DNA of 63,149 nucleotides, filler included, from Reclinomonas americana ATCC 50394 (lineage: Eukaryota), in the NCBI GenBank assembly GCA_048213135.1. It is 5 parts of 2 records of this genome, joined end to end, with 100 filler letters (N's around TTAATTAATTAA, not from the genome) between each part and the next. Parts side by side here need not be neighbours in the genome. Positions count along the whole stretch, not along the records: positions 29,497 to 52,975 come from PS015241.1; 4 more parts are not named here. One strand, written 5' to 3'. A model generated the notes under the pieces. The model was not told the DNA's origin and made no database searches. It worked only from the letters and a program-made list of their open reading frames with translations. A program made the position numbers and the translations under genes. Positions 43,374-52,975 of this stretch are shown piece by piece (the first letter of the stretch is position 1; every line of letters starts with the position of its first letter).

Positions 43374-44465
43374 TCACAGTCGGAGACTCTCATCGGCGAA
43401 ACAACGATGGAGAATCACCTCGGCCTCCTCCACAATGAAGCACCGCAGCACGATCTCTGGCAGACAACGTGGATCATCTCCTTCCTCCTCCGTGCCCTCT
43501 TGCATCTCCTGCACGACGCACATGGCTTGTCGAGCGCAGTCCAGCTCCTTCCGAGCGAGGCCACATGGCGTCGACCACACCCTCACCGTTCTGTCTTCAC
43601 CCCCGCTTACAATGTGCTGGCCATCTTGAGCAATGGCAACAGACAGCACATCTCCAGTATGCCCTTCCAACTGCCGCACCTCCTCCCCAGTCGCCAAGGA
43701 CCACACTCGCAACTTCCCATCTTCGCCGCCACTCACAACTTTCTGACTGTCAAGAGTGACGGCGACACACGAGACCCATCCACTGTGACCCTCGAATCGT
43801 CGCACCTCGTCTCCACTCTCCAGCGACCACACTCGCACAGTCGTGTCCCAGCTGCCGCTCACAACGTGGCGACCGTCTGGAGTGACGGCGACAGACGTCA
43901 CCGTATTGGCGTGTCCCTCCAACCGTCGCACTTCCTCCCCAGTCGTCAGTGACCACACGCGCACTGTCCGGTCGGCACTCCCAATCACTACATGCTGGCC
44001 GTCGGGAGTGACGGCAACAGTCCGCACCCGATTCATGTGCCCTTCGAATCGGCGCACTTCCTCGCCACTCTCGAGTGACCACGCACGCACGTTTTTATCC
44101 ACACTTCCACTAATGACGTGCTGACCATCAGGAGTGACGGCGACAGAGCGCACCATGCGAGAGTGCTGTTCAAATTGTTGCACTTGTTCTCCACTCGCCA
44201 ACGACCACACGCGAATCGTGCTGTCGATGCTCCCGCTGACCACGCGTTGACCATCGGGAGTGACAGCAACTGACTTGACCCAATGAGTGTGTCCCTCGAA
44301 TCGCGCCACCTCTTCTCCAGACACGAGTGACCACACTCGCACACTCTTGTCGTAGCTCCCACTCACAGCGAGCTGACCGTCGGGAAAGATGGCGACAGAG
44401 GTCACCGCGGAGGTGTGTCCACGCAAGCACTTGCAGGGGAGAGAGGGAGGAGGAGCGGAGGACAT
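43374..44465 (-). CDS. intronless 7-repeat WD40 protein with conserved C-terminal helical tail, copy 1 (363 aa)
   Basis: MSSAPPPSLPCKCL, then 7 x ~42-aa GH..V.SVAVTPDGQHVVSGS.D.TVRVW, then TPCGLARKELDCARQAM...DPRCLPEIVLRCFIVEEAEVILHRCFADESLRL*. Confidence 0.93.
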   Translation of the reverse strand: MSSAPPPSLPCKCLRGHTSAVTSVAIFPDGQLAVSGSYDKSVRVWSLVSGEEVARFEGHTHWVKSVAVTPDGQRVVSGSIDSTIRVWSLASGEQVQQFEQHSRMVRSVAVTPDGQHVISGSVDKNVRAWSLESGEEVRRFEGHMNRVRTVAVTPDGQHVVIGSADRTVRVWSLTTGEEVRRLEGHANTVTSVAVTPDGRHVVSGSWDTTVRVWSLESGDEVRRFEGHSGWVSCVAVTLDSQKVVSGGEDGKLRVWSLATGEEVRQLEGHTGDVLSVAIAQDGQHIVSGGEDRTVRVWSTPCGLARKELDCARQAMCVVQEMQEGTEEEGDDPRCLPEIVLRCFIVEEAEVILHRCFADESLRL

Positions 44466-44611
44466 GGTGCGGGCGTGGGGGGAGAAGAGCGAGAGTGTGT
44501 GCGAGTTGTCCTTTGATGAGGGGACATGCAAAGGTTTGGGACATGCCGATGACTTCGGCGCTGACACAGATTGTAGGCGACGAACTGAACGCGTGGGTGC
44601 TCCACTCGGAA

Positions 44612-44674
44612 GGTACATTCTCAGAGACAGAAAATAGGAGAAACTCATGGGCCACTGTCTGCTCCGACAAAGCA
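44612..44674 (-). promoter_or_regulatory. conserved non-coding block in the WD40 repeat unit (also ~46031-46090, 47606-47665, 48955-49015, 51185-51245)
   Basis: GGTACA(C/T)TCTC..AGA.AG.ATATTA.AGAAACTCATGGGCTGCTGTCTG lies about 110-150 bp upstream of each ATG. Its internal ATG frame differs between copies. Confidence 0.55.
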
Positions 44675-44805
44675 TGGAGGGTAGTTGGCAAGGGACGAGA
44701 ACAAGAGAGAGAGAGAGAGAGAGAGAGAGAGAAAGAGAGAGAGAGAGAGAGTGGGAGGTGGGAGAGCGAAGGCGGATCTCCTTTCACTCTTCATCCCACA
44801 GTAAG

Positions 44806-49984: not shown

Positions 49985-51076
49985 TCACAGTCGGAGACTA
50001 TCATCGGCGCAACAACGATGGAGAATCACCTCGGCCTCCTCCACAATGAAGCACCGCAGCACGATCTCTGGCAGACAACGCGGATTATCTCCTTCCTCTT
50101 CCATGCCCTCTTGCATCTCCTGCACTCCACGCATGGCTTGTCGAGCGCAGTCGAGCTCCTGCTGCGCCAGACCACAAGGAGTCGACCATACTCTCACGGT
50201 CCCGTCGTCACTCCCACTCACGACATGCTGACCATCCGGAGAAACGGCGACACATTGCGCCGCCGACGTGTGGCCCTCCAACCGTCGCACCTGCTCCCCA
50301 GTCGCCATCGACCACACACGCACGATCCCATCCTCACCCGCACTGACCACACGCTGACCGTCAGGAGTAACTGCGACAGACCACACGTATCCAGCGTGAC
50401 CCTCGAATCGTCGCACTTCCTCTCCGCTCGCCAGCGACCACACACGCACTGTATTGTCGTCACTTCCACTCACAACATGCAGCCCGTCGGGAGTAACGGT
50501 GACAGACATCACCCACTCCGCATGTCCCAGCAACTGTCGGACCTCCTCACCAGTCGCCAGTGACCACACACGCACTGTCCGGTCGGCACTCCCACTTACT
50601 GCCTGCTGGCCATCGGGAGTGACGGCAACAGACATTACCCAATTCGCGTGTCCCTCCAATCGGCGCACTTCCTCGCCACTCTTGAGTGACCACACGCGCA
50701 CGGTCTTGTCCACACTCCCACTCACTACATGCAGGCTGTCGGGAGTGACGGCGACGGAGCGCAACATGTTAGAGTGCCTTTCAAGCCGTCGCACTTCTGC
50801 TCCATTGGCGAGTGACCTCACGCGAATCGTTTTGTCATCGCTTCCGCTGACCACGTGCTGGCCATCGGGAGTGACGGCGACGGACTTGACCCAATCAGTG
50901 TGCCCCTCGAATCGCGCCACCTCTTCTCCAGACGCGAGTGACCACACTCGCACGGTCTTGTCGTCACTTCCGCTGACCACGTGCTGGCCGTCGGGAGTAA
51001 AGGCGACAGAGGTTACCGAGTTGGTATGTCCGCACAAGCACTTGTATGGGAGAGAGGGAGGAGGAGCGGAGGACAT
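49985..51076 (-). CDS. intronless WD40 protein, copy 5
   Basis: Same architecture, 363 aa. Confidence 0.93.
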   Translation of the reverse strand: MSSAPPPSLPYKCLCGHTNSVTSVAFTPDGQHVVSGSDDKTVRVWSLASGEEVARFEGHTDWVKSVAVTPDGQHVVSGSDDKTIRVRSLANGAEVRRLERHSNMLRSVAVTPDSLHVVSGSVDKTVRVWSLKSGEEVRRLEGHANWVMSVAVTPDGQQAVSGSADRTVRVWSLATGEEVRQLLGHAEWVMSVTVTPDGLHVVSGSDDNTVRVWSLASGEEVRRFEGHAGYVWSVAVTPDGQRVVSAGEDGIVRVWSMATGEQVRRLEGHTSAAQCVAVSPDGQHVVSGSDDGTVRVWSTPCGLAQQELDCARQAMRGVQEMQEGMEEEGDNPRCLPEIVLRCFIVEEAEVILHRCCADDSLRL

Positions 51077-51361
51077 GGTGTGCGTTCGTGGAGAGAGAGA
51101 AACGGAGTGTGTGAGTGAGTGTCCTTTGATGTGGGGACATGCCGACGACTTCGAATCTCTGAGGCCAGTGAGGACACGCCTGAAGGTACATTCTCGGAGA
51201 CAGGATATTAGAGAAACTCATGGGCTGCTGTCTGCTGTGGCAAAACGCGCAGAAAATGACAAGGGAAGAACCAGGAAACACGTGAGAGAGAGAGAGAGAT
51301 TGAGAGCACAAGACAGTTCTCCTTCCGTCCTTCGCCACTCAGCGAATCACAGTCGGAGACT

Positions 51362-52975
51362 CTAATCTGCGAAACAACGGTGGAGGATGACCTCGGCTTC
51401 CTCCACAATGAAGCACCGCAACACGATCTCCACCAAGCAACGCGGATCTCCTTCCTCTTCCATGCCCTCAAGCATCTCCGGCACTCCACGCATGGCTTGT
51501 CGAGCACAGTCCAGCTCCTGCCGAGCGAGACCACATGGCGTCGACCACACTCTCACCGTCCGATCGTCACCCCCGCTGACAACGTGCTGACCATCCGGAG
51601 AAACGGCGACGCACTGCACCGCTGATGCGTGCCCCTCCAGCTGACGTACTTCTGCGCCACTCGCCAGTGACCATACACGCACGGTTGTGTCCAAGCTGCC
51701 ACTCACTACGTGCTGACCATCGGGAGTGACGGCGACAGAGTACACAACGCTTGTGTGTCCCTCCAGTCGCCGCACTTCATCTCCACTCGCCAGAGACCAC
51801 ACGCGCACAGTCTCGTCCCAGCTGCCGCTCACCACATGCANNNNNNNNNNNNNNNNNNNNNNNNNNNNNNNNNNNNNNNNNNNNNNNNNNNNNNNNNNNN
51901 NNNNNNNNNNNNNNNNNNNNNNNNNNNNNNNNNNNNNNNNNNNNNNNNNNNNNNNNNNNNNNNNNNNNNNNNNNNNNNNNNNNNNNNNNNNNNNNNNNNN
52001 NNNNNNNNNNNNNNNNNNNNNNNNNNNNNNNNNNNNNNNNNNNNNNNNNNNNNNNNNNNNNNNNNNNNNNNNNNNNNNNNNNNNNNNNNNNNNNNNNNNN
52101 NNNNNNNNNNNNNNNNNNNNNNNNNNNNNNNNNNNNNNNNNNNNNNNNNNNNNNNNNNNNNNNNNNNNNNNNNNNNNNNNNNNNNNNNNNNNNNNNNNNN
52201 NNNNNNNNNNNNNNNNNNNNNNNNNNNNNNNNNNNNNNNNNNNNNNNNNNNNNNNNNNNNNNNNNNNNNNNNNNNNNNNNNNNNNNNNNNNNNNNNNNNN
52301 NNNNNNNNNNNNNNNNNNNNNNNNNNNNNNNNNNNNNNNNNNNNNNNNNNNNNNNNNNNNNNNNNNNNNNNNNNNNNNNNNNNNNNNNNNNNNNNNNNNN
52401 NNNNNNNNNNNNNNNNNNNNNNNNNNNNNGACCGTCGGGAGTGATGGCGACCGAGTGCACGACGTCGGTGTGTCCCCGCAACCGTCGCACCTCGTTGCCG
52501 CTGGCAAGCGACCACACCGGTATCGACTTTTCAAAGCTCCCACTCACGACGTGCTGTCCATCGGGAGTGATGGCGACTGACCACACGATATCAGCGTGAC
52601 CCATGAATCGGCGCACCTCTTCCCCACTTGCCAGTGACCACAAGCGCAACGTGTTGTCGAAGCCCCCACTCAAAATGTGCTGGCCGTCGGGGGTGACAGT
52701 CACACAAGATACGGCATAGGCGTGACCCTCCATCTGTCGCACCTCCTCACCACTTGCCAGCGACCACACTCGCACACTTGTGTCCGTGCATCCAATCACC
52801 AGGTGCTGGCCATCGGGAGTGAAGGCAACCGACCACATAGAGGAAGCACCGTCGACCAGGCGACGCACTTCTTTGCCACTCGCCAGCGACCACAGGCGCA
52901 CAGTCATGTCTTGACTGCAGCTCACAAAGTGCTGCCCGTCCGGGGAAACGGCAACAGACGTCACACCATCCGTGT
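51362..52975 (-). CDS. WD40 family copy 6 (gap-interrupted; either one longer gene or two copies)
   Basis: C-terminal repeats and tail at 51362-51839, ending FAD* at a TAG 5 codons before the usual TGA. At least 4 further WD repeats at 52430-52975. Total span exceeds the 1.1 kb of the other copies. Confidence 0.8.

What the first reader, a model, noticed from the sequence alone, without database searches (positions are those of the whole stretch)
43374..52975. Tandem array of stand-alone, intronless WD40 genes with variable binding-face residues: candidate diversifying recognition system
Seen: at least 6 head-to-tail copies of a ~363-aa single-exon gene in an otherwise intron-dense region. 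The 42-aa repeats are highly similar within each gene, but positions just after GH (TSAVTS, THWVKS, MNRVRT, TEWVME, IQWVMA, AGYVWS) and in GS-x-D-x (Y, I, V, W, N, C, D, H) vary strongly. Established: the same pattern of high internal conservation plus hypervariable top-face residues characterises fungal HET-E/NWD NLR sensor domains. Inference: these are NACHT-less variable sensors or adaptors, possibly for non-self or pathogen recognition, expanding by unequal crossing-over.
Basis: partly seen in the sequence, partly recalled or inferred. Interest (0 to 1): 0.72.

Follow-up and report, generated by a model that had tools for sequence, protein, structure and literature searches.

The report
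Variable-faced WD40 genes with constant tail
A protist genome carries six tandem copies of a small ring-shaped binding protein whose partner-gripping face differs between copies and is reshuffled by recombination while a helical tail of no known family stays constant, so it is likely a set of interchangeable adaptors, possibly for defence, with unknown targets.

Summary
Real. Five intact single-ORF genes (363-365 aa) and a gap-broken sixth lie head-to-tail. The six most variable blade positions are 10, 11, 12, 14, 30 and 32, the HET-E binding-face set. Copies are old paralogues (dS 0.35-1.2), not stacked haplotypes, and are mosaics of in-register exchange (p=0.0002). The HET-E analogy fails elsewhere: no NACHT, blades only 67% alike within a gene, and blades cluster by position rather than by gene. 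Positive selection is not robust. Binding-face omega is 0.87-1.48 against about 0.2 elsewhere, and above 1 only without doublet correction; a mean of 2 or more is unlikely. The tail has no family or fold match. It was found in only two database proteins: a Reclinomonas americana EST product and one Logan protein with a far-diverged propeller. Best reading: variable binder plus constant docking module; an immune role is not shown. Unchecked scan notes report similar arrays on eleven other pieces of this genome. New variant of a known kind.

The parts
43374..44465 (-). Copy c1 (P0002), 363 aa: 13-aa leader, 7 WD40 blades, helical tail (43377-43577)
44806..45897 (-). Copy c2 (P0003), 363 aa, the most diverged copy (69% nt to the others, dS 1.1-1.2); tail 44809-45012
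46390..47481 (-). Copy c3 (P0004), 363 aa; mosaic: c1-like in blades 1, 6, 7, c5-like in blades 3-5, partly c4-like in the tail (46393-46593)
47735..48832 (-). Copy c4 (P0005), 365 aa, 4-residue insertion between blades 2 and 3; tail 47738-47932
49985..51076 (-). Copy c5 (P0001), 363 aa; AlphaFold2 seven-bladed propeller (pLDDT >90) plus two tail helices; tail 49988-50188
51365..51840 (-). Copy c6, 3' piece: half a blade, two blades and the tail (51368-51547), ending 5 codons earlier than c1, c3 and c5
51841..52429 (.). 589-N gap inside c6; both flanks are in the same frame and repeat register, so the gap holds a whole number of blades (0 or more) or one whole gene unit
52430..52975 (-). Copy c6, 5' piece: about 4.3 more diverged blades; start lost in the scaffold gap 52976-53075
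44466..44700 (-). Conserved ~200-bp non-coding block upstream of the ATG, likely promoter or 5' UTR; counterparts at 45898-46100, 47482-47680, 48833-49024, 51077-51270; 76-91% identical between copies in gapped alignments

Best explanation
The array encodes two-part proteins whose seven-bladed WD40 propeller differs between copies on its top face and whose helical C-terminal tail is conserved; they likely act as interchangeable cytosolic adaptors that each grip different target proteins and hand them, through the tail, to one shared partner, most plausibly in surveillance of foreign or non-self proteins. Shown: the architecture; purifying selection on framework and tail (omega about 0.2); 5-8-fold faster change at six top-face positions; growth by whole-gene duplication; and in-register exchange of blade blocks between copies, which builds new face combinations without changing blade number. 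Inferred: binding through the top face (established for WD40 proteins generally), a docking role for the tail (from its conservation on a 28%-identical propeller), cytosolic location (no signal or membrane segment seen), and the defence role (by analogy only).
For: Top six entropy positions are 10, 11, 12, 14, 30, 32, six of the seven HET-E positions (PMC12222747). In the model they lie in the d-a loop, the start of strand a and the b-c turn (DSSP string), the top face (PMC1805685; PMC3419727). Among c1, c3, c4 and c5, pairwise amino-acid difference is 0.575 at these positions, 0.195 in the rest of the propeller and 0.138 in the tail; 39 distinct six-residue signatures occur in 41 blades. Omega is 1.26 / 0.22 / 0.19 for face / framework / leader+tail with recombination-aware trees. 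The face residues are filtered rather than free: Pro 2 of 171 states against 12-17 expected, Asp/Glu/Asn enriched. Topology-informative sites cluster by segment (p=0.0002; synonymous only p=0.05). The tail is 43% identical in P0127, whose whole protein is 24-29% identical; 19 positions are invariant over 8 sequences. A family member is an EST product with the last blade, tail and stop in one reading frame. Each copy keeps its own upstream block.
Against: Omega above 1 is not robust. It is significant in single-tree or no-doublet fits but not with segment trees (p=0.09-0.10) or with doublet substitutions (0.87-1.14), and doublets are favoured even on non-face sites (LRT 14.4). No single position is significant in the five-gene test. 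With a free synonymous rate at the face codons, omega falls to 0.5-0.6. Variable hotspots are a general WD40 trait (PMC5587647 section 11). The tail matches no adaptor family. No target or partner is known, and the flanking genes are glycosyltransferases and a kinase, not defence genes.
Confidence: 0.45

Rival explanations
1. Birth-and-death expansion of a largely redundant gene: the fold and tail are needed, but the top face is simply released from constraint, so the variants carry no distinct specificities.
For: Face omega is about 1 in the better-fitting doublet models: 0.93, 0.87-1.06, 1.14 with CI 0.92-1.39. M1a versus M2a is not significant once recombination is allowed (p=0.09 and 0.41). 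GC3 is 0.63-0.67 against 0.81-0.91 in neighbours, which may mean low expression.
Against: All five complete copies keep open frames at dS 0.35-1.2. Face composition departs from neutral expectation while the rate stays near neutral. The few sites with high posterior for omega>1 are all face sites (3 of 3 above 0.5). Position 30 is above 1 in all six per-position fits (1.15-3.3).
Confidence: 0.25
2. The same variable-binder plus constant-tail design, but tuned to the cell's own proteins (signalling, trafficking or turnover), with no defence role.
For: Selection on the face is at most mild; a mean omega of 2 would have been detected in 40 of 40 simulations. Blades are old and position-specific. 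Nothing in the window ties the array to defence.
Against: Ongoing mosaic exchange that reassorts faces and a lineage-restricted tail fit a conflict-driven family better than a housekeeping one (inference).
Confidence: 0.2
3. The units are cassettes of a larger receptor: alternative last exons spliced to an upstream head, or sequence donors for the WD40 sensors of NACHT receptors elsewhere in the genome.
For: The leader codons are pyrimidine-rich and end in AAG, like a weak splice acceptor. An orphan exon (53263-53406) lies just upstream of c6 across a gap of unknown size. Unchecked scan notes report NACHT-WD40 genes in this genome, two beside such arrays.
Against: All five copies keep ATG preceded by ACC, and all three c1-c2 leader differences are synonymous. 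The orphan exon ends in phase 1 while the putative acceptor is phase 0 (read). No Walker A motif lies between 29 and 63 kb. The tail is under purifying selection and ends in a stop in an EST.
Confidence: 0.08
4. Assembly artefact: haplotypes of one locus stacked in tandem.
For: The scaffold has four N gaps in or beside the array.
Against: Copies are 69-85% identical at DNA level with dS 0.35-1.2; c1-c2, c3-c4 and c5-c6 are joined by spacers without any N.
Confidence: 0.02

Closest known systems
WD40 sensor domains of Podospora anserina HNWD/NWD NLRs (HET-E, HET-D, HET-R); PMC1805685, PMC12222747, PMC4986451 (passages read)
   Same: 42-aa blades in the same register; variation at positions 10, 11, 12, 14, 30, 32 on the top face; recombination between family members.
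   Different: No HET or NACHT domain; one 7-blade propeller, not about 11 conserved repeats forming two; blades 51-79% alike within a gene, not over 80%; blades cluster by position, so exchange is between genes in register, not between blades; position 39 conserved; selection weak; an extra conserved C-terminal tail.
Moderately/highly repetitive WD40 proteins of bacteria, fungi and protists (Hu et al. 2017, PMC5587647, passages and section 11 read; PDB 5yzv PkwA, 2ymu)
   Same: Consensus-like blades with variable hotspots; best structural matches (TM 0.97 to 5yzv, 43% identity). Internal identity 0.46-0.62 puts the copies in the 'moderately repetitive' class.
   Different: None of the 120 best-scoring listed database WD40 proteins carries the tail; here the propeller is multiplied as whole genes in a tandem array.
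Substrate-receptor families with a variable binding domain and a constant docking box (F-box/WD40, WSB-type WD40-SOCS box, nematode F-box and MATH-BTB expansions; recalled, not read)
   Same: Layout: variable propeller plus short conserved helical module, expanded in tandem clusters.
   Different: The tail has no Pfam F-box or SOCS-box hit in 8 of 8 members; the LPE of the second helix is LVE or LVD in 3 of 8; the recalled BC-box spacing is not met; no link to a cullin ligase is shown.
P0126, product of a Reclinomonas americana EST (EukProt EP00694, EC795383.1), and P0127 (unnamed Logan protein, 394 aa)
   Same: WD40 blade(s) followed directly by the same tail; P0126 is 58-64% identical to the copies over 105-114 aa.
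   Different: P0126 is not any of the six copies here; P0127 has a far-diverged propeller (24-29% identity); neither has a described function.

Membership tests
HNWD/NWD fungal NLRs | NACHT NTPase domain (with or without HET) in the same protein | tested here: not met
   c1-c5 are fully accounted for by leader, 7 blades and tail; 3 Walker A motifs in six frames of the window, all below 29 kb; c6's 5' end is unseen
HNWD/NWD fungal NLRs | High internal conservation (over 80% between repeats; 85% aa over 100 aa) | tested here: not met
   51-79% nt in 105 pairs; best 100-aa internal identity 0.56-0.78; thresholds
HNWD/NWD fungal NLRs | Concerted evolution and shuffling of repeats within a gene | tested here: not met
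   Blade trees: 7-8 changes of position label (minimum 6, shuffled 19.8, p=0.0003) against 20 changes of gene label for 28 blades of c1, c3, c4, c5; some c2 and c6 blades sit out of place with weak support
HNWD/NWD fungal NLRs | Hypervariability at positions 10, 11, 12, 14, 30, 32, 39 | tested here: met
   6 of 7: the top six of 42 positions; 39 is conserved
HNWD/NWD fungal NLRs | Positive diversifying selection at those positions | tested here: inconclusive
   omega 0.87-1.48; significant only without doublet correction
HNWD/NWD fungal NLRs | Repeat-number polymorphism between isolates and non-self-triggered cell death | not testable with these tools
   No own genome is held and no isolate data were available
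Highly repetitive WD40 (Hu 2017) | At least six repeats pairwise 0.7 identical or more | tested here: not met
   0.46-0.62 in 5 of 5 genes
Moderately repetitive WD40 (Hu 2017) | At least six repeats pairwise 0.4 identical or more | tested here: met
   5 of 5 genes (definition)
F-box or SOCS-box WD40 substrate receptors | F-box or SOCS-box sequence signature | tested here: not met
   0 of 8 tails hit such a Pfam model at E up to 10 (HMMER filters drop most weak matches); no such chain among 9 weak PDB sequence hits
F-box or SOCS-box WD40 substrate receptors | Box-like fold of the tail | tested here: inconclusive
   Tail model pLDDT 70, pTM 0.40; only generic helical hairpins, best Z 7.0, rmsd 3.1, 63 aligned
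F-box or SOCS-box WD40 substrate receptors | Binding to Skp1 or Elongin C and a cullin | not testable with these tools

The most novel reading that the evidence does not exclude
A jakobid-type protist keeps a genome-wide, germline-encoded library of dozens of single-propeller 'intrabodies'. Their binding faces are reassorted by in-register recombination, and their new tail domain plugs them into one shared effector, such as a degradation machine or the genome's NACHT receptors acting in trans: a split, combinatorial intracellular immune recognition system in an early-branching eukaryote.
Probability: 0.15. Interest if true: 0.85.

Novelty: new variant of a known kind. Interest (0 to 1): 0.45.

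Why it matters
How free-living protists recognise intracellular invaders is largely open. A small, soluble, intronless family with a constant tail and swappable faces is directly testable: express single copies and the tail alone and identify what they bind. The tail is an undescribed conserved domain whose partner would define the pathway. If the faces prove merely relaxed, the case is a useful warning that HET-E-like variable positions in WD40 arrays do not by themselves show immune function.

Tried and rejected
Own-genome copy count: no genome held. Sequencing runs: none was listed, so no read evidence on expression or assembly. Tail searches without a hit: word-based search of residues 296-363, ESM Atlas (P0127 gave only WD40 clusters), PDB sequences (best hit a designed helical repeat, E 0.002, no stretch passing alone), Foldseek PDB and viral (nothing at E 0.001), VIA-align (generic hairpins), pattern scans of metagenome, viral and prokaryote contigs (0 confirmed of 177, 51 and 16 candidates). 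None of the five proteins is in the 15-billion collection as an exact sequence. F-box and SOCS-box readings of the tail were considered from recalled motifs and not supported. A short coding exon starting at the conserved upstream ATGAGT was rejected because phase and frame differ between copies. Haplotype stacking was rejected. The initial significant omega was not accepted after the recombination and doublet controls. A resemblance of the orphan exon 53263-53406 to the end of a small GTPase was noticed by eye; Pfam gave nothing. Paper searches for this family listed nothing describing it; one search did not retrieve the nematode F-box work, which stays recalled.
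Full report
Observation. The minus strand of 43374-52975 holds five complete open frames of 363, 363, 363, 365 and 363 codons (c1-c5) and a sixth copy in two pieces around a 589-N gap. The two c6 pieces are in the same frame and repeat register, so c6 is one 7-blade gene with an overestimated gap, a longer gene, or parts of two genes. 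Its start is lost in a scaffold gap of unknown size. Spacers are 253-340 bp where no N intervenes. Each complete protein is a 13-aa leader, seven WD40 repeats and a tail of about 65 aa. AlphaFold2 gives a confident seven-bladed propeller, closest to consensus-like bacterial and designed propellers (5yzv, TM 0.97). Flanking genes are a xyloglucan-type fucosyltransferase, two galactosyltransferases and a protein kinase.

These are real genes, not stacked haplotypes. Pairwise identity is 69-85% nt with dS 0.35-1.2 and overall omega about 0.3. All five keep ATG after ACC, the three c1-c2 differences in the leader are synonymous, and a ~200-bp upstream non-coding block is 76-91% identical in gapped alignments, even for c2. 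Single-exon structure is therefore likely but not shown by RNA.

Where the variation lies. Over 43 blade fragments (35-42 residues per column) the six highest entropies are at positions 30, 14, 11, 12, 32 and 10. These are six of the seven positions used for HET-E repeats (PMC12222747, passages). I mapped them by register and by the model's secondary-structure string, not by measuring coordinates. They fall in the d-a loop, the start of strand a and the b-c turn, the top face (PMC1805685, passages; PMC3419727, abstract and section 10). Among c1, c3, c4 and c5 these sites differ in 57.5% of comparisons, the rest of the propeller in 19.5% and the tail in 13.8%. Variable hotspots are also described as a general trait of repetitive WD40 proteins (PMC5587647, passages and section 11), so the pattern alone is not diagnostic of immunity.

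How the array diversifies. Blades within a gene are only 67% alike in DNA (51-79%), less than the same blade in another gene (74%). That is below the HET-E range (over 80%) and the HiC rule of PMC4986451 (passages). It is 'moderately repetitive' by Hu's rule. On blade trees the position label needs 7-8 changes (minimum 6, shuffled 19.8) and the gene label shows no signal. So there is no HET-E-like homogenisation of blades. Instead whole genes were duplicated and exchange blocks in register. Of 85 informative sites among c1, c3, c4 and c5, blades 1, 6 and 7 favour c1+c3, blades 3 and 5 favour c3+c5, and the tail favours c1+c5 / c3+c4. Clustering p is 0.0002 (74 sites, one per codon) and 0.05 for 29 synonymous sites.

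Selection. The six positions were fixed in advance from the HET-E literature; the codon alignment has 363 columns, with insertion codons of c2 and c4 left out. On one tree, omega is 1.36-1.38 (p 0.013-0.019) against 0.23 for the framework and 0.20 for leader plus tail. M8a/M8 gives p=0.005, carried by three sites, all on the face. With a separate tree per segment omega is 1.26 (p 0.09-0.10), and 0.93 when adjacent double substitutions are allowed. No single position is significant, and a free synonymous rate at the face codons lowers omega to 0.5-0.6 with a doubled rate. M1a/M2a gives p=0.09 and 0.41. Pooling 41 of 43 blade fragments gives 1.14, 0.87, 1.48 (p=0.001) and 1.06 in four fits. With parameters from non-face sites only, omega is 1.40 (1.15-1.73) without and 1.14 (0.92-1.39) with doublets, and doublets are favoured (LRT 14.4). 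Simulated omega of 1.5 and 2 was detected in 37 and 40 of 40 runs. The face therefore changes at about the neutral rate or slightly faster, while excluding proline and favouring Asp, Glu and Asn (this test assumes equilibrium and is only suggestive). Strong diversifying selection on average is unlikely; mild selection is open.

The tail. It is predicted as two helices joined by an acidic linker (low to moderate confidence), the first amphipathic. A profile search of 1.84 billion representatives found two proteins. P0126 is a Reclinomonas americana EST product holding the last blade, tail and stop. P0127 is an unnamed Logan protein whose tail is 43% identical while the whole protein is 24-29% identical. 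Nineteen positions, including LA-x-x-EL and LRCF, are invariant over eight sequences. None of the 120 listed best WD40 database hits (of 5866) carries the tail. It matches no Pfam family, PDB sequence or specific fold. P0126 shows the family is transcribed in a jakobid and suggests, without proving, that the window comes from a jakobid or relative; it is not one of these six copies.

Mechanism. A variable binding face on a fixed scaffold, a constant module kept even on a distant propeller, and recombination that reassorts faces fit an adaptor repertoire: each copy would bind its own targets and deliver them through the tail to one shared partner. The layout recalls F-box and SOCS-box substrate receptors (recalled, not read), but the tail fails their sequence signatures. 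A defence role is the usual cause of such families, yet nothing here shows it. I give 0.45 to a surveillance-type adaptor repertoire, 0.25 to relaxed birth-and-death, 0.20 to adaptors for endogenous partners, 0.08 to cassettes of a larger receptor and 0.02 to artefact.

Earlier notes. The scan has reported similar arrays on eleven other pieces of the same genome, about 70 genes where counts are given, two of them beside NACHT-WD40 genes. These are unchecked AI notes. I could not confirm that they share this tail: sequence look-ups did not return them, although two name a Reclinomonas EST product as closest. They are leads, not support.

Verdict. It works like a variable-specificity WD40 binder family and resembles HET-E sensors in where it varies, but it is not an HNWD/NWD member. 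The searches (listings and abstract starts only) and passages of the Andalucia genome paper (PMC7050145) showed no description of it; the library lacks most subscription journals and no supplements were read. New variant of a known kind; interest 0.45.

Noticed in passing
window 53263-53406 (-): Orphan 48-codon exon with clear splice sites just upstream of c6, across a gap of unknown size; no Pfam hit; by eye faintly like the end of a small GTPase. It may belong to c6 or to a separate gene.
   Followed up: partly
window 43374-51076: GC at third codon positions is 0.63-0.67 in the array against 0.81-0.91 in three neighbouring exons.
   Followed up: no
window 55623-58265 (-): Intron-split gene matching the plant-type xyloglucan fucosyltransferase family PF03254.
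   Followed up: no
window 32893-33900 (+) and 37890-38800 (-): Two galactosyltransferase (PF01762) genes facing each other, with two related exon sets of no clear family around 31300-32800 and 34500-36760 (weak 2'-5' RNA ligase-like hit, E 0.006, at 31835-32251).
   Followed up: no
window 39223-42300 (-): Protein kinase gene (PF00069/PF07714) preceded by hydrophobic, probably membrane-spanning exons, directly downstream of the array.
   Followed up: partly
window 18556-28819 (+): Very large gene with Gly/Asn/Ser-rich repeats, a Cys-rich stretch and a multi-pass hydrophobic end; two long exons gave no Pfam hit at E 0.01; looks like a surface receptor.
   Followed up: no
window 8700-11907 (+) and 14424-15053 (-): Aminopeptidase P-like gene (PF16188) and a divergent protein kinase fragment.
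   Followed up: no
window 28789-28968 (+): Two 90-bp tandem copies, 97% identical, at the end of the large surface-protein gene.
   Followed up: no
P0127: The same tail on a propeller only 24-29% identical and not internally repetitive, from a 2262-bp Logan contig: the tail is older than this array.
   Followed up: partly
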